Shown: positions 9,381 through 23,695 of the stretch, in pieces
Layout of the letters: each line of letters starts with the position of its first letter
Position numbering within the stretch: the first letter of the stretch is position 1
UHGV virus genome: UHGV-0139945
DNA: 26,445 nucleotides
Origin: a virus
Direction: 5' to 3' (one strand)
Position numbers and translations under genes: made by a program
The notes under the pieces: generated by a model
Told to the model about the DNA's origin: nothing
The model's input: the letters and a program-made list of their open reading frames with translations, nothing else
Databases searched by the model: none

Positions 9381-10442
9381 TTATGATTTCACAATCACGC
9401 CGATCGCTATGGCTCTATCAAGAAAACGGAACAGCAGCTGCAGCTGTGAGCCGTTTTTCTCTTCAAACGCATTTACGTCGGCATGTAGCTCGTCGTGACA
9501 CTCTCTGCACAGAGGGAACACGAAGAGATCGTGGGCTTTGGTTGCGGTACCGCCCATGCCATGCCCGATAACATGATGCGGATCGTCGGCAGGTCGGCGA
9601 CAACATTCACATGGCTGACGTTTTACCCAGTCGGTGTAGGTCTTGTTAACCCAGCGGCGGCGCTTAGGTTTCAACATAAAGGATTCAGGTGATTCCGGGT
9701 CAACGGCCAGCGCCAACACCTTCGGCAGCTTCGGTAACGCCTGCACGTTTTCGTTGGACCAGCATTTCTGTATTAATCTTGCTGTTGGCAACCTCTCCTG
9801 CAGAATGCTGGTGGCTGGTACTGAAGGAACAATGTCGCTTTCTTTATATACAGATTGAAACGGCTCAGCAGGAAGGCGCAGGCCACGCTGCGCCATTGTC
9901 TCTGTGATAGCGTCTGCTGCACCGGCATATACAGCCCACCAGCATAGCTCCGCCAGCGATAGTTCCCGCTCCCGGCCCAGTTGCAGATTCTGCAGGGCAG
10001 TATCGATTATCCAGTTGATAACGTTTCGGCGCGCCAGCTCACTGAGTGTGTCGGTGGTCTGCTCACGAAGGAGGTTTTCACAATGCCAGCAGAGCATGAT
10101 AGCGCCGGGTGGATGGCGCATGCTTAAATGCTCATGATGATGATATTCAGAATGCGGATACTGGCATTCCCGGATGTTCTGCCGAAGCCAGTACTCAAGC
10201 CCCTGCAGACCTCCAGCAGCATTGATGACTTTCTCGCTGGTGAAAAAGGCTTCCAGTGCCTTATCTTCAGCCAGCGGCTGGCGCGCGTCAGGGATTCGGC
10301 CGGTCGCCAGCCCTGCCATGCTTTTTGGCTCAGACTCCACCAGCACCCTACCGCTGCGGAAAAGACGCATCAGCTCCTTTCCTGGCTTAAGCAGTACCAC
10401 GCCTAAGCGCGGCACAACTTCAGGAGTAAGCAGAGCTCTCAT
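9381..10442 (-). CDS. DUF968-like nin-region protein with Cys/His-rich C-terminus, 353 aa
   Basis: C-terminal CECCRRPADDPHHVIGHGMGGTATKAHDLFVFPLCRECHDELHAD looks like a zinc/HNH-type motif; size and position resemble E. coli YdfU (recollection); start overlaps C5 MTase stop (10439-10442). Confidence 0.6.
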   Translation of the reverse strand: MRALLTPEVVPRLGVVLLKPGKELMRLFRSGRVLVESEPKSMAGLATGRIPDARQPLAEDKALEAFFTSEKVINAAGGLQGLEYWLRQNIRECQYPHSEYHHHEHLSMRHPPGAIMLCWHCENLLREQTTDTLSELARRNVINWIIDTALQNLQLGRERELSLAELCWWAVYAGAADAITETMAQRGLRLPAEPFQSVYKESDIVPSVPATSILQERLPTARLIQKCWSNENVQALPKLPKVLALAVDPESPESFMLKPKRRRWVNKTYTDWVKRQPCECCRRPADDPHHVIGHGMGGTATKAHDLFVFPLCRECHDELHADVNAFEEKNGSQLQLLFRFLDRAIAIGVIVKS

Positions 10443-12409
10443 GCAACCTCCCTCTGCTCAGGAATACACATTTCCGGTAGGTTTGCCCTTACCAGAGCTT
10501 CAGCGAACGGCGGTGGGACGGCGTTGCCGCACCTAGCGACTTGTTTGTCTTTGGCGTAACGGTTGCCGCGGTAATCCTGATCGATGATGTAGCCCGCAGG
10601 AAAACCTTGCGCCCTGTACAGCTCGTGCGGCTGTAACATCCGCATGCCAATATCGACGATCTGATATTCAACCCCCTCAACCGTTACCAGACCAAAACGA
10701 TCGTTAGTGGTGACAGTTCCCAGCGGCTCATCCAGCGATACACCGCTTTTTTCGTTCCCGTAATACTTCATCAGGAAAGCTCGTACTTCCCCGACATGCT
10801 GACCGCCGGCGGTAATTGTTGGCACAGGTTCGTCAACTCTGCGACCGTCCTTGCAGGTGCCGCGAAGATGAACGAGGTGTGAAGTCACCATCGCCGCATC
10901 AGCTTTTGTTGTCAGAGTCTGCAACGGCTCATCAGCATCACGAGGGCGGCTTTGCCCCGCTCGACCACCAACGCCAACAATCTGGGCTGTCACTAAAGCG
11001 TGGTGATCGGTTGTCGTCACTGTGTGAGCAGGCTGATCTATTGCAGCGCCGGGGCCTGTATAATTCCCTCCGAAGTGTTTTGCCAGAAACGTGGTGACCA
11101 GCTGAGATTTACCGCCGCCCCCAGCTGTAATGGTTGCACTCGGCTCGTCGGCACCGTGGCCGACGCTGGCACCGAATTGACGTGCGATCACTGGTGCCAC
11201 TAAACAGGCTCGGGATTGTTTCAGGATGGTGTGGGCTGGCCTGTTGATTGCGCGTGGTTTGGCCTGATACTCACTGCCGCCATTGCCAGCGATGAACGGT
11301 ATCAACGTTGCTTTCACTATCCCTAGTGCATGTCCATTTCCCCCCGGGCGCTGCGAACTTCCCGCGGTAACGGTTGGTAATGGTTCAGTGCATTCCTGCC
11401 CGGTGGCGCCGGTACGAAATTTTGTGACATGTGGCGTCACTACGGCGTATCCGTGAGTTTTGGTAATGGTCTGCAGCGGGCTATCGATATCCTGCCCACG
11501 GAAACAGTCATACGAACTACGGGTGCTGGTGTGATTGCATTTGACGATGAAAGGCGTCGGATTATTCAGCACAAACCGCTCGATTCCGCGCGCAATGCGT
11601 TTCAGCGTGTTTTCTGCAAGCGGCTTTTTACGATCAAAGATGCTTTGGCACGGGATAGACCAGTCGATACATTCAGCTGCTGTACGCCACCCTGCCAGTT
11701 TGCCGCTTTGTACTTCGAGCGATTTGGGATCCCCATGAGTCGGCGCTGGCCAGTGGATAGTTTCACCGTCGCAGCGCATCACCATAAAGAATCTCTTCCT
11801 TATTGTCGGCGCCCCGAAATCACAGGCACGCAACTCGCGATAATCGATGGTATACCCAAGGCCAGATATCAGGGCCTTTGCCTGCTCACTGTCGGGAGGA
11901 ATAGACAGAAACTCGCAGGCTTCGGCCAGCGCGGGGTGATCGACCGGGATCCCCGTAGACAACATCCCGACAAATGCAGCGAAGGTTTCCCCTATGCGTG
12001 TCGGGTCCGGACGTGCCTCATCCTCCAGCAATGGCCCCCACGTCTTGAACTCTTCAACGTTCTCCAGCATTACAACGCGCGGACGCTTCGCCAACGCCCA
12101 GCGGACAACGATCCACGCGAGACCGCGAATCTCTTTCTTCACGGGCTTTGCACCCTTCGCCTTAGAGAAATGCCTACAGTCCGGGCTAAACCACGCCAGG
12201 CCAACCGGATTACCGCCGGTCGCCGCGACCGGGTCAACATCAAATACGGACTCACAATAATGGAGCGTATCTGGATGGTTGGTTTTGTGCATGGCAATAG
12301 CGTTTTCATCATGGTTTATCGCAATATCAACGCTGCGCCCGATCGCCAGCTCAATCCCTGTGGACGCGCCACCGCCACCAGCAAAATTATCGACAATAAT
12401 CTCACGCAT
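10439..12409 (-). CDS. DNA (cytosine-5)-methyltransferase with enlarged repeat-containing variable region, 656 aa
   Basis: Motif I FAGGGG, catalytic Pro-Cys (SPDCRHFS), ENV (VVMLENVEEF), QGFP (motif VIII) and GNAV (motif X); about 7 tandem DEPxxT[IV]T-like repeats between; 8-nt overlap with the upstream MTase gene. Confidence 0.9.
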   Translation of the reverse strand: MREIIVDNFAGGGGASTGIELAIGRSVDIAINHDENAIAMHKTNHPDTLHYCESVFDVDPVAATGGNPVGLAWFSPDCRHFSKAKGAKPVKKEIRGLAWIVVRWALAKRPRVVMLENVEEFKTWGPLLEDEARPDPTRIGETFAAFVGMLSTGIPVDHPALAEACEFLSIPPDSEQAKALISGLGYTIDYRELRACDFGAPTIRKRFFMVMRCDGETIHWPAPTHGDPKSLEVQSGKLAGWRTAAECIDWSIPCQSIFDRKKPLAENTLKRIARGIERFVLNNPTPFIVKCNHTSTRSSYDCFRGQDIDSPLQTITKTHGYAVVTPHVTKFRTGATGQECTEPLPTVTAGSSQRPGGNGHALGIVKATLIPFIAGNGGSEYQAKPRAINRPAHTILKQSRACLVAPVIARQFGASVGHGADEPSATITAGGGGKSQLVTTFLAKHFGGNYTGPGAAIDQPAHTVTTTDHHALVTAQIVGVGGRAGQSRPRDADEPLQTLTTKADAAMVTSHLVHLRGTCKDGRRVDEPVPTITAGGQHVGEVRAFLMKYYGNEKSGVSLDEPLGTVTTNDRFGLVTVEGVEYQIVDIGMRMLQPHELYRAQGFPAGYIIDQDYRGNRYAKDKQVARCGNAVPPPFAEALVRANLPEMCIPEQREVA

Positions 12410-13301
12410 GAGCGGCCCCCTGCATACTCCCTACCAGGCCACCAGCAACGGTGATGATCTCGCTGGTGGGCATGCGCTCCAGCCACAACTGGTTAATGTG
12501 GGCCTTCAGCTTGTTCTGCTGGGACAATTCCAGATCCTCAGCGCCTTCAACCTGGTTGAACACCAGCCCAACTTCCAGTGGCCATATCCGTGATTCAGCC
12601 TCAGCCAATGCTGCAAATCCAGCTTCGGGGATGATCACTTCAGGAGACTGAGCTGGCGAAGCTGGTGACAGGAATTTTCCTGCTGCAAACTCAGCCAAAG
12701 CCATACTTGCGCGCCCTTTCGCTTCAAGCTCTACACGATCGATATAGCTAAAGTGCTCGCCGCGCCAGGTCTTATCGAATACCACAATGGCCCCGGCAAA
12801 GAAGGCGCTGGTGGGCTTCTGCTTTTCGTCGGCCGGCACAAACCACGTAGGGAGATCGAAACCAATACGACCACGAATAAACATGATGTGATCGGCATAT
12901 TCCGGCCACCATGTTTCACTAGTTGCTGACTTCACGAGGTAAATGTAGCGACCGCCCTTTTCACGCTGCTCGGCGGTGTATTTCATGATATGAGTCATGC
13001 CAGTTATGGCTTGTTTTTTATGGTACTGCGAGCGGCTGTAGGGCGGATTAGCAAAGGCTGCACCGCCGAGTTCTCCTAGGCGACCAGACCAGTCCTGCGT
13101 CAACGCATTATCCTCAGCGGTGTACCATGCCGGGCATTTCGTGTTGCTGTCGTCAGCAAACAGATCCAGAACAAGAGGACCAAATAACGAATTAATTCCC
13201 CAGAACAAAAGATCAGGCGTACGCCACTGATCACCAACTTCTTTCAAATAATGGGACGGCGCAACACGCATTGCTTCCAGCGATTCACAATATGCATTCA
13301 T
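12402..13301 (-). CDS. Phage-type DNA N6-adenine methyltransferase (YfdM/phage Dam-like) with C-terminal extension
   Basis: WRTPDLLF...LDLFADD...AFANPPYSRS pattern typical of the phage N6-adenine MTase family (recollection); ATG at 13301 overlaps the upstream stop (TGATG); track start 13304 is GTG. Confidence 0.75.
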   Translation of the reverse strand: MNAYCESLEAMRVAPSHYLKEVGDQWRTPDLLFWGINSLFGPLVLDLFADDSNTKCPAWYTAEDNALTQDWSGRLGELGGAAFANPPYSRSQYHKKQAITGMTHIMKYTAEQREKGGRYIYLVKSATSETWWPEYADHIMFIRGRIGFDLPTWFVPADEKQKPTSAFFAGAIVVFDKTWRGEHFSYIDRVELEAKGRASMALAEFAAGKFLSPASPAQSPEVIIPEAGFAALAEAESRIWPLEVGLVFNQVEGAEDLELSQQNKLKAHINQLWLERMPTSEIITVAGGLVGSMQGAAHA

Positions 13302-13558
13302 CACGCCAGTACCTCCTGCACTACTTTCTCGACATGCGACACTCGGCCTTCCAGATCTGCAACGCTATCAACAAGCTCATCAACTGCCAGCTGTGCACGA
13401 TGTTTGGCCTGCATCAGTTCACGCAACGCCGGTACCAGTGCTTTTTTAAGCGCGTCCTTTGTGGCCCCCGTTTTTTCCAGCTGTTCGGCACGTTTGAGCA
13501 TGTCTTCAGCCTGGCGGCGCAGTTGTTCAGGGGTTGGTGATATAACCTGCGATTTCAT
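13301..13558 (-). CDS. Hypothetical coiled-coil protein, 85 aa
   Basis: ORF-track ORF; ATGA overlap with replication gene stop at 13555-13558; helical, charged sequence. Confidence 0.45.
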   Translation of the reverse strand: MKSQVISPTPEQLRRQAEDMLKRAEQLEKTGATKDALKKALVPALRELMQAKHRAQLAVDELVDSVADLEGRVSHVEKVVQEVLA

Positions 13559-19553: not shown

Positions 19554-19685
19554 TTGCTCTCCATTAAATCCCCGGCGCCGCGGGGATTTATTAAAGCGTA
19601 ATCCTGCAATTTATCGCCATCTGGCGAGGGATTCCTATACCCAAAAAACAGCGCTGTGCAGAGCGCAATTAAATGGAGAAATGCA

Positions 19686-20213
19686 ATGAGCTTTATTCAA
19701 ACGTTTACTGGCAAACACTTTAACTATCTCGATATCCAGCAGGATGCCATCGAAATAGAAGATATCGCGAACGCTCTCTCGAATATCTGCCGCTTTGCAG
19801 GCCATCTGCCTGAGTTCTATAGCGTAGCGCAGCATAGTGTTTTAACGAGCAACCTTGTGCCGCAGGAGTTTGCGCTAGAAGCGCTGCTGCACGACGCAGC
19901 CGAGGCTTATTTGCAGGATATCCCGGCACCGCTTAAACGCCTGCTCCCGGACTACCGCGCAATTGAGGATCGGGTTGATGCCACTATTCGCCAAAAATTC
20001 GGCCTTCCTACTGAGCAACACCCGACCGTGAAGTATGCCGACCTTGTGATGCTGGCCAGCGAACGACGCGACTTTGAGATCGACGACGGCACCCACTGGC
20101 CGATGCTCGACGGCATTATTCCCACCGACCAATTTGTGATTAATCCCGTCCGCCCTGGCCAGTCTTACGGCATGTTCATGAACCGCTTTAACCAACTGAT
20201 GGAGCGGTGCTAA
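19686..20213 (+). CDS. HD-domain phosphohydrolase (YfdR-like 5'-deoxynucleotidase), 175 aa
   Basis: HD-domain pattern (AQHSVL...LLHDAAEAYLQDIP); start taken at ATG 19686 (MSFIQTF...) rather than track start 19656. Confidence 0.7.
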   Translation: MSFIQTFTGKHFNYLDIQQDAIEIEDIANALSNICRFAGHLPEFYSVAQHSVLTSNLVPQEFALEALLHDAAEAYLQDIPAPLKRLLPDYRAIEDRVDATIRQKFGLPTEQHPTVKYADLVMLASERRDFEIDDGTHWPMLDGIIPTDQFVINPVRPGQSYGMFMNRFNQLMERC

Positions 20214-20410
20214 TGGCACACGTGAAAGTGAAAGAATTGGTTGCTGCAGCGTACGCTGCGGCACCGGGTCTACCACCAGCAGAAGCCCAATTGATGCAAG
20301 ACATAGCGTCAAGGCTGGATGTGACCTTTGTCGCCCTTACAGAGGCAATGGACCAGAACACAGCGCTGTCGGCTGAAATAGAAAAGTTATGCGGAGTAAT
20401 CAAGAAATGA
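20213..20410 (+). CDS. Hypothetical protein, 65 aa
   Basis: ATG at 20213 overlaps upstream TAA (TAATG); track start 20207 is GTG. Confidence 0.45.
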   Translation: MAHVKVKELVAAAYAAAPGLPPAEAQLMQDIASRLDVTFVALTEAMDQNTALSAEIEKLCGVIKK

Positions 20411-20535
20411 ACGAAGAAACTGATTACCGCGGATTCTGGCGCGCTGCTGTTGTGAGCTGTGTTCTTTGCATTATTTTGTTCTGGCTCCCGGCAATCATCA
20501 TTTCAGCTTACTACTACCTGGAGGCCCACAGATGA
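20407..20535 (+). CDS. Small membrane peptide, 42 aa (not in ORF track)
   Basis: ATGA overlaps at both ends (20407-20410 and 20532-20535); product MNEETDYRGFWRAAVVSCVLCIILFWLPAIIISAYYYLEAHR has one clear transmembrane helix. Confidence 0.4.
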   Translation: MNEETDYRGFWRAAVVSCVLCIILFWLPAIIISAYYYLEAHR

Positions 20536-20837
20536 AAAAACTTAAATTCTACGGCGTCAGCGATGACCTCTTCGAGTGTGAAGGCGCTATACGTGAAGAA
20601 ATCTGTATGTATAGCAATCCTGGTGTTTATCACCTCAGATCATCTGAAGGGCAAATGCTGGTTATTGCCTGCTATACGGACGAGGGATGCTGGGCGATTG
20701 GCGTCGGTCAGGTCAATGAAGAGACTCCGCTCCCCTCATGGCCTACATCATTTAGCCAGCATGAGCGCGGCTATAGCGTGGTCTTAACGCTGCAGGTACC
20801 TGACGACACCGAGTTGGTATCGGAGGATGACGAATGA
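20532..20837 (+). CDS. Hypothetical acidic protein (YfdT-like by size), 101 aa
   Basis: Start at MKKLKFYGV with GGAGG RBS; Asp/Glu-rich, C-terminus ...TELVSEDDE. Confidence 0.55.
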   Translation: MKKLKFYGVSDDLFECEGAIREEICMYSNPGVYHLRSSEGQMLVIACYTDEGCWAIGVGQVNEETPLPSWPTSFSQHERGYSVVLTLQVPDDTELVSEDDE

Positions 20838-21160
20838 GCACGATTACAGCGCTTCCAGTTGAACGAGATCCGGAATACGGCTTCTGGACCCACCCCGCAT
20901 TTGATGATCTATGCGGAGAGCGTGAGGGCGTTCCATTTTCCGAGTTTAGGGAATGGCTTGATACGAACGGACTGGAATCAGTTACAGAGTATATGGATAG
21001 CATCGATGATAAATCGGTGTTGGCGGAGCACGAACTGTTTGGGACGTTCATCCAATGGCAGCCTGAATCACCACATGGAGACGGTTGGTTTATCGGCTCT
21101 ATTCACGATACCGAAGATGGACCTGTTTGTATCTGGTTGCGCGAGGTGAAGTATGACTGA
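20834..21160 (+). CDS. Hypothetical acidic protein, 108 aa
   Basis: ATGA overlap with upstream gene; Asp/Glu-rich. Confidence 0.55.
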   Translation: MSTITALPVERDPEYGFWTHPAFDDLCGEREGVPFSEFREWLDTNGLESVTEYMDSIDDKSVLAEHELFGTFIQWQPESPHGDGWFIGSIHDTEDGPVCIWLREVKYD

Positions 21161-21587
21161 TATCACCAACGTAGTTAAGAATCTGCGCCACTGGGCAAAG
21201 ATGGCCTCACTGACCAGCGAACAAGTTTCCTGCTTAAGCGTTCAGCAACTCGAAACTATTGCGAATGAGCTTGATTCAGCCCACCAGCTGATCGCCGAAC
21301 TTGAGTCATTTCGTACCGCTTACATGGAATGGAGCGATAAAACTGATTGGATTCAGACGGACAGACGATTTGACATGGTGAAGCCGCTAGGCAAACACCG
21401 CGCTGATGTGCTGAAGACGTATATCGATCATTTGGAATCTCGCGCCGTGAAACTGCCGAAGCGTACCGTTGGTGAAGTAATGCATATGAGCGGATTTAGC
21501 CGCGACTACGCCGAGGGTTGGTGCTCAGGCAATGATAACGCCATTCATGAAATGCGTGCCGCTGGCATCAAGGTTGAGGGGGAGTGA
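21153..21587 (+). CDS. Hypothetical protein, 144 aa
   Basis: ORF-track ORF; start overlaps upstream stop; no recognisable motif. Confidence 0.55.
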   Translation: MTDITNVVKNLRHWAKMASLTSEQVSCLSVQQLETIANELDSAHQLIAELESFRTAYMEWSDKTDWIQTDRRFDMVKPLGKHRADVLKTYIDHLESRAVKLPKRTVGEVMHMSGFSRDYAEGWCSGNDNAIHEMRAAGIKVEGE

Positions 21588-21940
21588 TGCGCCAAATCGG
21601 AGAGCTGATTACAGCGGAGAGAGCCGCCACTGTTATATACGAAACATTCGGACACCTGGACGCGAAGCCGGGGGAGCGACATAAAGGCTGGTTCGTTTTT
21701 ATCAACGGTCAGCATGGCGATATGGACGTGGTGTACAGCGACTTTCCAACGTTTGGTGAAGGCCCTGGATATTTCACTGACAGAGAGGACTTCATCTGGG
21801 AGTTAATTCGTGATGATGGTCCATGCGCTGCTGTCGGCATCTACCGGTTCGATGGTGAATATCGCCTGCCCAAAAGAAAAGGTCCGGCCCGTTTCGTTGG
21901 TAAAACCACCTGCATTCAGACATTCGGGGAGGCTGAGTGA
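21587..21940 (+). CDS. Hypothetical protein, 117 aa
   Basis: ATG at 21587 overlaps upstream TGA (TGATG); track start 21584 is GTG. Confidence 0.5.
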   Translation: MRQIGELITAERAATVIYETFGHLDAKPGERHKGWFVFINGQHGDMDVVYSDFPTFGEGPGYFTDREDFIWELIRDDGPCAAVGIYRFDGEYRLPKRKGPARFVGKTTCIQTFGEAE

Positions 21941-22311
21941 TGTGGAGAGGAACCGATCGCACCAGAAGCCAGATGATACTGACCGAGTATCAGTACGACT
22001 ATCAGAAGAAAAACTCACGCTCTGTTTACCTGGTGCGACATAACAGCCGCATTCAGCAGACGGTTCTGGAGCAATTCCTGACGGTGGATCGCGATAGCTT
22101 CGGTCGCTTTATGCCGACTATCGAACTGAAAGACTTCCCTGAGCAGCTTAGCGACCGCGAGTCGATGCTCAAACTTGCCGACTGGCTGCACCGCTTACCC
22201 GCCACCAAGCAAAATATGTATCGGCAATCTGGCAGAAACTATTGCCTTCAAACGACGAATAATAACCCTAATCGCCCGGGTGCAGCCGGGCAATGGAGAA
22301 ATCTATGCTGA
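21940..22311 (+). CDS. Hypothetical protein, 123 aa
   Basis: ATG at 21940 overlaps upstream TGA; basic product; last gene before xis. Confidence 0.45.
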   Translation: MWRGTDRTRSQMILTEYQYDYQKKNSRSVYLVRHNSRIQQTVLEQFLTVDRDSFGRFMPTIELKDFPEQLSDRESMLKLADWLHRLPATKQNMYRQSGRNYCLQTTNNNPNRPGAAGQWRNLC

Positions 22312-22511
22312 GCCTCGATTGTGTTCCCATCTCAACTTATTGCAAAGAGACTGGCGAAACCCCTGATGCCATAAATAAGCGCATCCAGCGCGGCGTATGG
22401 CGTGAAGGGGTACAGGTGCTAAAGGTCGAAGGCGTTAAGGAAAGATGGATAGATCTTAGTGAGGTTGCAAAATGGGCTCGACAAAATCGCCTAAACTCCC
22501 GCGCGGCGTAA
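22293..22511 (+). CDS. Excisionase (Xis-like DNA-binding protein), 72 aa
   Basis: Small basic protein just upstream of int and overlapping it by 40 nt; winged-helix-like DAINKRIQRGVWREGVQVLKVEGVKERWIDLSEVAKW; ATG at 22305 is an alternative start. Confidence 0.65.
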   Translation: MEKSMLSLDCVPISTYCKETGETPDAINKRIQRGVWREGVQVLKVEGVKERWIDLSEVAKWARQNRLNSRAA

Positions 22512-23638
22512 CCATCAGGAAACATAGCAACGGAGAAACTATCAATATTACTTTTACATATAAGGGAGTTAAGTGCCGTGAACCCCTTTCTAATCTGGAA
22601 GTTTCTTCGAAAAACATTAAATATGCTGAGCGAACACTCGGAGAAATTCATAACAAAATCGAAAGAGGAACGTTTGTTTATGCAGAATACTTCCCCCGTT
22701 CTACCCGGTTAAAAATCTTTGGGAATGCTGCCTCCGGCAAAACGGTGAAAATGTATCTAGATGAATATCTTGTGATTTGCGAAACGAGGAAGTTATCCCC
22801 TTCAACGATCGGCGGCTACAAAAAATGCCGTAGCGCATTGTCATCGCTTCACGTTTTTCCCGCAAGTGAGTTAACGCCGGCTGCATTGAAGGCATGGATC
22901 CAAGATCAGAAAACGACCTTGAAGACCATCCGAAACCAACTTTCTTTCCTGCGCTCTGCAATGGATGAAGCGGTAACAGATGGTATTCTCCAGATTAACC
23001 CTGTTTCACTAGTAACAGCCTCACGTTACCAGAGTGACAAATCAGTGTCAGAAAGTAGTTATGTGGTTGACCCGCTATCACCAGCCGAAGTACATGCTTT
23101 GCTCACAGCTGCTGGCAATAAACAATGGGAGAACCTCTTTCGATTCGCCATCCAAACTGGCCTGCGTAGTTCTGAGCTGTGTGCTCTTCGTTGGCGTGAT
23201 ATCGATTTTGTAGGGAAGACAGCCCACGTTCAGAATGCCACCGTAGTTGGCGTAATCAAAGGGACCAAAACAAAAGCTGGAACACGGAAGGTTGAACTAA
23301 CTGACGAAGCAATGCTTGCGTTAGTTAGTCAGAAACCGTTCACTTTTATGAAAGATGATACGATCTTCGAAGATCCAAAAAGTAATAAAGCATGGGCAAG
23401 TGCTGATGCAATAAGAAAAAAAGCGTGGGTACCAACCTTACGAAAGGCAGGCATCCGCTATCGTAATCCATACCAAACCCGGCACACTTTTGCTACCCGT
23501 CACATTAGCCAAGGTGCCAATCTTTTTTGGTTAGCCACACAAATGGGGCATAAAGGACCAGAGATGCTTTTCCGTCACTACGGCTCATATCTGAAGGAAT
23601 ATGATGGACAAACAAGCCTGAAGAAGATAACAATATAA
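22472..23638 (+). CDS. int: Tyrosine recombinase / phage integrase (lambda Int-like), 388 aa
   Basis: Arm-binding-like N-terminus and C-terminal catalytic residues (TRHTFATRH, LATQMGHKGPEMLFRHYGSY); GC falls sharply immediately downstream. Confidence 0.9.
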   Translation: MGSTKSPKLPRGVTIRKHSNGETINITFTYKGVKCREPLSNLEVSSKNIKYAERTLGEIHNKIERGTFVYAEYFPRSTRLKIFGNAASGKTVKMYLDEYLVICETRKLSPSTIGGYKKCRSALSSLHVFPASELTPAALKAWIQDQKTTLKTIRNQLSFLRSAMDEAVTDGILQINPVSLVTASRYQSDKSVSESSYVVDPLSPAEVHALLTAAGNKQWENLFRFAIQTGLRSSELCALRWRDIDFVGKTAHVQNATVVGVIKGTKTKAGTRKVELTDEAMLALVSQKPFTFMKDDTIFEDPKSNKAWASADAIRKKAWVPTLRKAGIRYRNPYQTRHTFATRHISQGANLFWLATQMGHKGPEMLFRHYGSYLKEYDGQTSLKKITI

Positions 23639-23695
23639 TCCATGTCTGAACTATTGGCCACAATTTGTGGCCATTTCATGGAACAAGGTACAAAC

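What the first reader, a model, noticed from the sequence alone, without database searches (positions are those of the whole stretch)
20532..21160. Two consecutive small, strongly acidic early proteins
The 101-aa and 108-aa products are rich in Asp and Glu (for example ...VPDDTELVSEDDE). Small acidic early proteins in phages are often DNA mimics or other anti-defence factors (Ocr or ArdA-like logic). This fits a phage that also carries several MTases, but it is speculative.
Basis: inference. Interest (0 to 1): 0.4.

Follow-up and report, generated by a model that had tools for sequence, protein, structure and literature searches.

The report
Two acidic orphan phage accessory proteins
Two adjacent small genes in the early operon of a temperate enterobacterial phage encode unrelated, unusually acidic proteins of unknown function; one belongs to a very large unnamed family carried by phages and about 2,000 conjugative plasmids, but nothing yet shows that either is a DNA mimic.

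Summary
ORF A (20532-20837, 101 aa, net charge -13, pI 4.2) and ORF B (20834-21160, 108 aa, net -18, pI 4.2) are real, translationally coupled genes. They sit in the cI-to-xis/int early-left operon of an ST64B/phiNP-like prophage that carries four methyltransferases. They are by far the most acidic proteins in the window, and the acidity is conserved across both families.

A and B are unrelated to each other and usually occur separately. A is PHROG 10666: all-beta, about 240 single-domain relatives, found in phages and plasmids of several phyla. B is PHROG 1372: alpha/beta, over 1,100 clusters at 50% identity, in 40 phage records and 1,988 mostly conjugative plasmids. B is often fused to other accessory modules, including Lar and Tad2.

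My best reading, which is inferred, is that each is an independent charge-driven binder of a host nucleic-acid-binding protein, acting in counter-defence or host takeover. DNA mimicry remains untested. Interest is moderate to low.

The parts
20532..20837 (+). ORF A: 101-aa acidic all-beta protein (PHROG 10666, function unknown)
20834..21160 (+). ORF B: 108-aa acidic alpha/beta protein (PHROG 1372, function unknown). Conserved motifs are RD..G.WTHP and W.P..P.GDGWFIGSIHDTEDGPVCIWLR.
20520..20524 (+). Shine-Dalgarno GGAGG, 7 nt before the ATG of A. The stop of the upstream 48-aa ORF overlaps A's start (ATGA, 20532-20535).
   Evidence: Read directly from the sequence.
20822..20826 (+). Shine-Dalgarno GGAGG, 7 nt before the ATG of B, lying inside the 3' end of A. 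A's stop and B's start overlap as ATGA (20834-20837).
   Evidence: Read directly from the sequence.
19656..20213 (+). Context: HD-domain 5'-deoxynucleotidase (YfdR/sb35-like), upstream member of the same chain of overlapping genes
   Evidence: PHROG 318, E 6e-98; Pfam YfbR-like, weak.
21153..21587 (+). Context: 144-aa protein whose start overlaps the end of B. Its C-terminal part belongs to the commonest neighbour family, found next to both A and B in related elements.
   Evidence: PHROG 20344/1138 on the C-terminal part. Its C-terminal motif (RAVKLP...GIKVEGE) resembles that of the largest neighbour cluster.
22293..23638 (+). Context: excisionase (22293-22511) and integrase (22472-23638) at the end of the same operon
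   Evidence: PHROG 2917 excisionase, E 5e-43. Synteny with phiNP and Klebsiella prophages.

Best explanation
A and B are two unrelated accessory genes that move independently. Both sit in the variable cassette of the early-left operon (repressor, YfdP, YfdQ, HD nucleotidase, ..., xis, int) of an ST64B/phiNP-like temperate phage, and are translated as part of a chain of overlapping genes. Each encodes one compact, strongly and heritably acidic domain with no recognisable catalytic fold.

The mechanism I think most likely is as follows. Each protein works alone as a stoichiometric binder. Soon after infection or induction, its negative surface occupies a positively charged, nucleic-acid-binding surface on a host protein. 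For B homologues on plasmids the equivalent moment would be tra-operon expression. Binding would block or divert the host protein. The target would be a defence nuclease or motor, or another DNA- or RNA-handling protein. This makes them counter-defence or host-takeover factors.

Shown here: the genes, the coupling, the acidity and its conservation, the folds, the distribution on mobile elements, the fusions and the independence of A and B. Inferred: that they act by binding, that charge is the key feature, and that defence is the target class.
For: Genes and coupling.

Acidity: extreme relative to neighbours. It is conserved over whole families and across phyla. In B most of the acidic residues lie in variable columns, a charge cloud of 20 variable against 7 fixed acidic columns.

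Placement on mobile elements, always in arrays of small early or accessory genes.

B spans phages and plasmids: 40 phage records and 1,988 plasmids, 1,719 of them conjugative.

B is fused to known counter-defence modules: Lar_restr_allev in 3 of 59 fusion proteins and a Tad2-like domain in one, at E 1.5e-22.

The host phage also invests in self-protection, with four MTases.
Against: No target, interaction or phenotype is known.

The electrostatic surface geometry could not be examined.

B carries about 20 nearly invariant residues, among them R11, D12, H20, H91, D92, E94, D95, C99, R103 and five Trp. That looks more like a fixed ligand or partner site than a drifting mimic surface.

On F-type plasmids B lies inside the tra operon or between finO and repA. 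It does not lie in the leading region where plasmid anti-restriction genes usually sit; that last point rests on my own knowledge.

The fusions to Lar and Tad2 are few, and most fusion partners are themselves unknown.

DNA mimics are a small minority of known anti-defence proteins: 11 of 268.
Confidence: 0.35

Rival explanations
1. They are modulators of phage development or host physiology, not counter-defence factors. They would resemble the proteins of the lambda exo-xis region (Ea22, Orf63, Orf61, Orf73/TraR). On this reading A and/or B bind a core host machine such as RNA polymerase or a replication or nucleoid protein, and so tune the lysis-lysogeny decision or, on plasmids, the physiology of a conjugating cell.
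For: The genes occupy the position between the recombination/accessory genes and xis on the early-left operon. Their neighbours in related elements include TraR/DksA-type and DUF1317/DUF1382 proteins, the latter listed in annotated relatives, and in close relatives a protein with a weak Ead/Ea22 Pfam hit. B occurs both in this region and inside F-type tra operons. TraR and lambda Orf73, which bind RNA polymerase directly, have the same dual distribution (PMC9239242). B's highly conserved motif fits a conserved core target.
Against: There is no homology or fold similarity to any solved chain, and the Ea22 C-terminal domain and Orf63 have published NMR structures. Extreme acidity is not a known feature of those proteins; that rests on my own knowledge. 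A is found in Actinobacteria, Cyanobacteria and Proteobacteria, so any target would have to be nearly universal.
Confidence: 0.25
2. B is a ligand-binding module, for example a sponge for a nucleotide-derived immune signal, or a very small enzyme. Its conserved Trp/His/Asp/Arg residues would form a pocket, and the acidity would be secondary.
For: About 20 nearly invariant residues in 108, rich in W, H, D, E and R. The fusion partners are biased towards nucleotide chemistry: Tad2-like, Rv2179c-like 3'-5' exonuclease (twice), DHHA1 and dUTPase_2. An HD 5'-deoxynucleotidase is a frequent neighbour.
Against: No fold match to Tad1, Tad2, Acb2 or any other solved sponge or enzyme. Each such fusion partner is seen only once or twice. 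Oligomeric state and pocket could not be examined.
Confidence: 0.12
3. B is the immunity or antidote partner of a nuclease. The window copy would then be an orphan antidote that neutralises a related nuclease of the host or of a competing element.
For: In IncFII/IncFIB Klebsiella plasmids the B homologue starts 4 bp inside the end of a DUF2726 (PD-(D/E)XK superfamily) gene and is followed by a phospholipase-D-family gene (DUF2726 classification from PMC3424549). A small acidic protein downstream of a nuclease is the classical inhibitor arrangement; that rests on my own knowledge.
Against: In the window and in phage loci B has no nuclease partner of this kind, and its upstream neighbours are varied. 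In pEA49-KPC another gene lies between DUF2726 and B. The many plasmid records share one backbone, so they are not independent evidence.
Confidence: 0.08
4. A and B form an obligate two-component unit, as the heading 'two consecutive proteins' might suggest.
For: They are translationally coupled here. All five loci holding the closest B relative also have A directly upstream. Where both occur in IMG/VR loci they are usually directly adjacent, in either order.
Against: Profile comparison shows no relationship between them. Only 15 of 80 A loci have B within 5 kb, and only 4 of 79 B loci have A. Of the 19 closest A relatives, only one has B. None of the 7 species-representative genomes with A has B within 6 kb. 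phiNP and ST16-OXA48phi5.2 carry A without B. B sits on about 2,000 plasmids, A on 5.
Confidence: 0.05

Closest known systems
PHROG 10666 (for A) and PHROG 1372 (for B), both annotated 'unknown function'
   Same: Full-length profile matches: E 1e-20 for A and 4.8e-35 for B. These are the families the two proteins belong to.
   Different: The families carry no name, function, Pfam model or NCBIfam model. No paper in the searched library mentions them.
DNA-mimic anti-restriction proteins Ocr (T7 gp0.3) and ArdA
   Same: Small size. Net negative charge per residue is in the same range; the values for Ocr and ArdA are from my recollection. Carried by phages or plasmids and expressed early.
Lambda exo-xis region proteins (Ea22, Orf63, Orf61, Orf73/TraR, Ea8.5)
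   Same: Same kind of location: small, tightly packed, variable genes of the early-left operon upstream of xis/int. Like TraR/Orf73, the B family is shared between this region and F-type tra operons.
   Different: No homology or fold similarity. There are no data on lysis-lysogeny effects for A or B.
Lar (restriction alleviation) and Tad2 (anti-Thoeris sponge)
   Same: They occur as fusion partners of the B domain in some relatives. That places B among modules that phages combine for counter-defence.
   Different: B itself does not match either family. The window protein is a stand-alone B domain.

Membership tests
Ocr-type DNA mimic | Homology or fold of T7 Ocr (all-helical dimer) | tested here: not met
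Ocr-type DNA mimic | Very high net negative charge | tested here: met
   Net -13 in 101 aa and -18 in 108 aa, pI 4.2. Conserved across both families. Outliers among neighbouring ORFs.
Ocr-type DNA mimic | Surface carboxylates arranged like the phosphates of bent B-form DNA | not testable with these tools
Only the linear distribution of acidic columns could be examined.
Ocr-type DNA mimic | Inhibits type I R-M or BREX in vivo or in vitro | not testable with these tools
   Needs experiments.
ArdA (Pfam PF07275) | Match to the ArdA profile or three-domain fold | tested here: not met
PHROG 10666 | Full-length match to the family profile | tested here: met
   A: E 1e-20, residues 1-98 on profile positions 3-101 of 104.
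PHROG 1372 | Match to the family profile | tested here: met
   B: E 4.8e-35, residues 1-106 on profile positions 55-157 of 194. The longer profile reflects fused relatives.
Lambda exo-xis accessory proteins (Ea22, Orf63, TraR/Orf73) | Position in the early-left operon upstream of xis/int | tested here: met
   Gene order is repressor, YfdP, YfdQ, HD..., A, B..., xis, int on one strand.
Lambda exo-xis accessory proteins (Ea22, Orf63, TraR/Orf73) | Sequence or fold homology to one of the named proteins | tested here: not met
Nuclease-immunity pair (DUF2726 plus B, as on IncF plasmids) | Cognate nuclease gene immediately upstream | tested here: not met
   In the window B is preceded by A and followed by a 144-aa protein with only unknown-function PHROG hits. 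The pair exists on Klebsiella plasmids.

The most novel reading that the evidence does not exclude
B would represent a very large, unnamed domain family that phages and conjugative plasmids of Proteobacteria share as a general entry or wake-up factor. The family has over 1,100 clusters at 50% identity and sits on about 2.7% of catalogued plasmids, including Tn4401 (KPC-type) carbapenemase-transposon Klebsiella plasmids. It would be either a DNA or nucleic-acid mimic with a new fold, or a new sponge-like binder built around its invariant Trp/His/Asp motif, and it would disable a widely conserved defence or DNA-handling protein. A would be a second, independent, cross-phylum inhibitor with another new fold.
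Probability: 0.15. Interest if true: 0.7.

Novelty: new member of a known kind. Interest (0 to 1): 0.33.

Why it matters
If either protein proves to be a counter-defence factor, it would add a new fold to the anti-defence repertoire. For B the consequences would be wider. The same domain sits on nearly 2,000 sequenced plasmids, 1,459 of them from Klebsiella and most of them conjugative. A function in establishment or host manipulation would therefore bear on the spread of resistance plasmids as well as on phage biology.

As things stand, the finding is a well-documented pair of uncharacterised accessory genes. It is useful as a candidate for screening, but it does not resolve any open question.

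Tried and rejected
- **Family libraries.** Pfam, NCBIfam and PADLOC scans of A and B found nothing.
- **PDB sequence profiles.** Nothing for B. For A there were summed weak hits to Photorhabdus propeller lectins, E 1e-6 for the whole chain. These come from one roughly 22-residue beta-hairpin motif matching each blade, with no single stretch significant (i-E-values above 100). I rejected them as a local motif resemblance.
- **A versus B.** BLASTP and profile-profile comparison show they are unrelated.
- **E. coli genomes.** Megablast found no match.
- **Obligate A-B pair.** Rejected on distribution.
- **Fusion partners of B.** Most are unknown to Pfam and PHROGs, including a recurrent 'ERQRQ...WWKP...AEIERLDR' domain.
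- **Failed lookup.** The context lookup for P0050 found no record.
- **Promoter and terminator scan.** It found nothing inside the gene chain, and counts are at or below the shuffle expectation.
- **Literature.** No paper mentions either PHROG. The polyvalent-protein survey does not mention Lar, DUF2829, DUF2726 or Ea22.
- **Surface-charge analysis.** It could not be done because model coordinates are not exposed.

Full report
**Observation**

A runs 20532-20837 and encodes 101 aa ending in ...VPDDTELVSEDDE. B runs 20834-21160 and encodes 108 aa. A has 19 acidic and 6 basic residues (net -13, pI 4.23). B has 24 acidic and 6 basic residues (net -18, pI 4.16).

Each ATG is preceded at 7 nt by GGAGG. 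The junctions with the upstream ORF and between A and B are both ATGA overlaps, and the next ORF starts 8 nt before B's stop.

From the HD nucleotidase gene (19656) to the ORF ending at 22311, every gene overlaps its neighbour. No promoter-like or terminator-like site lies inside this chain.

Per residue, A (-0.129) and B (-0.167) are the most acidic products in the window; the next is -0.084. Among 273 distinct ORFs flanking their relatives in other elements, only 0.4% match A's acidity and none matches B's.

**The element**

The window is a temperate phage of Enterobacteriaceae related to Citrobacter phage phiNP, Salmonella phage ST64B and Klebsiella prophages. It is not found in complete E. 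coli genomes at the DNA level.

On the + strand the order is:
- an S24-type repressor
- YfdP-like and YfdQ/DUF2303 proteins
- an HD 5'-deoxynucleotidase
- a 67-aa protein and a 48-aa hydrophobic protein
- A, then B
- a 144-aa protein with only unknown-function PHROG hits
- two more small proteins
- excisionase and integrase

This arrangement is the counterpart of the lambda early-left operon, so 'early' is a reasonable inference from synteny. The phage does carry several methyltransferases, four in all.

**The two proteins are unrelated and move separately**

BLASTP and profile-profile comparison find no relationship between A and B.

All five loci holding the closest B relative (93% identity, Klebsiella michiganensis and others) have A directly upstream. 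Elsewhere the two separate:
- phiNP and Klebsiella phage ST16-OXA48phi5.2 have A without B.
- Only 15 of 80 IMG/VR loci with A have B within 5 kb. Of the 19 closest A relatives, only one does.
- Only 4 of 79 loci with B have A.
- None of the 7 species-representative genomes with A has B within 6 kb.

When both are present they are usually adjacent, but mostly in the order B-A, often with B as the N-terminal half of a 172- or 209-aa protein.

A and B share the same set of neighbour families. These include a family resembling the window's 144-aa downstream protein, ASCH-like, ParB-like and TraR/DksA-like proteins, the HD nucleotidase, RecT and excisionase (several of these names are my reading of the sequences). 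Both are therefore interchangeable modules of one shuffled accessory cassette, not a two-component unit.

**Protein A**

A belongs to PHROG 10666, function unknown. A profile search finds 243 relatives, all about 100-115 aa, single-domain and unnamed.

The conserved core is FYG.SDDLFE.EGAI.EE near the N terminus, then YHL, W.IGV, P.W and VPDD.

A weak, repeated sequence resemblance to the blades of Photorhabdus propeller lectins involves one hairpin only. No single stretch is significant.

The family is rare but taxonomically wide. Members occur in:
- enterobacterial prophages
- 93-kb Gordonia phages
- plasmids of Prescottella, Chroococcidiopsis and Variovorax
- metagenomic phage contigs

In every case the gene sits within arrays of small genes, and the protein is acidic. 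Half of A's acidic residues lie in fixed columns.

**Protein B**

B belongs to PHROG 1372, function unknown. An exhaustive profile search finds 1,113 clusters at 50% identity.

About 20 of its 108 positions are invariant or nearly so. They fall in RD..G.WTHP and in the hairpin W.P..P.GDGWFIGSIHDTEDGPVCIWLR. Most other acidic residues sit in variable columns: 20 variable against 7 fixed.

Among the 150 best hits of the profile search, 59 proteins of about 200 aa or longer were taken for analysis; each carries the domain at one end of a larger protein. Identified partners among these 59 fusion proteins are:
- Lar restriction-alleviation domains (3)
- Rv2179c-like 3'-5' exonuclease (2)
- a Tad2-like domain (1; E 1.5e-22)
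- dUTPase_2, DHHA1 and KTSC (1 each)

Other partners include coiled-coil segments and several domains unknown to Pfam and PHROGs.

B occurs in 40 phage records. These include mEp213, mEp460, Rac-SA53, an Stx2k phage with the same YfdP-YfdQ-HD synteny, PY54 and D6, and phages of Klebsiella, Erwinia, Pseudomonas, Burkholderia and Nitrincola.

It also occurs in 1,988 plasmids, of which 1,459 are from Klebsiella and 1,719 are conjugative. On F-type plasmids it takes three different positions:
- between traB and traV
- just before traU
- between finO and repA, overlapping the end of a DUF2726 (PD-(D/E)XK) gene and followed by a phospholipase-D-family gene, on a Tn4401-carrying IncFII/IncFIB Klebsiella plasmid

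**Mechanism**

Nothing here identifies a target, so the mechanism is inferred. Four facts constrain it:
- Neither protein is an enzyme of a recognisable fold.
- The negative charge is extreme and maintained by selection across deep divergence.
- Both families live only in the accessory, early-expressed parts of mobile elements.
- B is combined by fusion with known counter-defence modules.

The simplest reading is that each is a stand-alone binder. It would use a negative surface to occupy the nucleic-acid-binding surface of a host protein, most plausibly a defence component. I give this 0.35.

The main rival (0.25) is that they are developmental or physiological modulators like the lambda exo-xis proteins. 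The precedent is TraR/Orf73, a small protein family shared by the exo-xis region and the F tra operon that binds RNA polymerase (PMC9239242). That precedent matches B's distribution strikingly well.

B's dense set of invariant polar and aromatic residues, and its nucleotide-related fusion partners, keep a ligand-binding or sponge-like function open (0.12).

The DUF2726-B arrangement on plasmids suggests a nuclease-antidote relation for that subfamily (0.08). The window has no such partner.

**Comparison with the known, and novelty**

The proteins are members of two catalogued but uncharacterised phage protein families. They are not members of the Ocr, ArdA, Lar, Tad2, Ea22, Orf63 or TraR families.

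They share charge, size and timing with DNA mimics, but the defining feature, the geometry of the charge, was not testable. Only 11 of 268 catalogued anti-defence proteins are DNA mimics.

I rate the finding as new members of a known kind: uncharacterised early accessory proteins of temperate phages. The open possibility is that B in particular hides a widespread new function.

Interest is moderate to low (0.33).

Noticed in passing
window 23642-26390 (+): Directly after the integrase lie a 595-aa ABC-type ATPase and a D12-class adenine methyltransferase. The ATPase hits AAA_15/AAA_21 and PtuA/AriA/GajA-like PADLOC models. The methyltransferase matches PD-Lambda-5_B over its full length (E 5e-123). 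This looks like a PD-lambda-5-like defence pair carried as prophage cargo. phiNP and a Klebsiella prophage have the same ATPase position.
   Followed up: partly
window 7071-8123, 10439-12409, 12402-13304 (all -), 25509-26390 (+): Four DNA methyltransferase genes in one 26-kb stretch: N6_N4, a 655-aa protein whose N terminus carries a C5 methyltransferase domain, Dam-type and D12-class. A DUF968/HNH protein sits at 9381-10442 next to the C5 enzyme.
   Followed up: partly
L010 8351-9961 (CP067963.1), L181 2129-4706 (pEA49-KPC): On IncFII/IncFIB Klebsiella plasmids carrying Tn4401, a B-family gene overlaps the end of a DUF2726 (PD-(D/E)XK) gene. A phospholipase-D-family gene follows, and the whole set lies between finO and repA. 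This could be a nuclease-inhibitor module on a very common resistance-plasmid backbone.
   Followed up: partly
proteins P0245, P0249, P0260, P0291, P0325 and others (partner regions of B fusions): A domain of about 100 aa recurs in 17 of 58 fusion-partner pieces, on either side of the B domain. Its motif is AERQRQ..EGWT.EHDD.H..GEL..AA.CY...WPW...WWKP...R.LVKAGALILAEIERLDR. It matches only unknown-function PHROGs (6628, 9763, 11504 and others) and no Pfam family.
   Followed up: partly
window 21584-21940 (+): The 118-aa ORF two genes downstream of B has no hit in Pfam, PHROGs, NCBIfam or PADLOC. It appears to be a true orphan within the same gene chain.
   Followed up: no
window 20389-20535 (+): A 48-aa ORF with one hydrophobic segment (weak Pmp3-like hit) overlaps the start of A by ATGA. 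It may be a small membrane protein translationally coupled to A.
   Followed up: no
L185 3001-3318 (Gordonia phage Smoothie gp96), L184 4022-4333, L183 4001-4348, L182 4001-4327: The A family reaches Actinobacteria (Gordonia phages, a Prescottella plasmid), Cyanobacteria (a Chroococcidiopsis plasmid) and Betaproteobacteria (a Variovorax megaplasmid, overlapping a DUF6283 gene). Identity is 30-38% and the proteins remain acidic. That is an unusually wide spread for a roughly 100-aa phage accessory protein.
   Followed up: partly
L008 5001-5324, L180 3495-3833: B-family genes are inserted at different points of F-type tra operons: before traU in Enterobacter, and between traB and traV in Yersinia. 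This recalls the placement of traR.
   Followed up: partly
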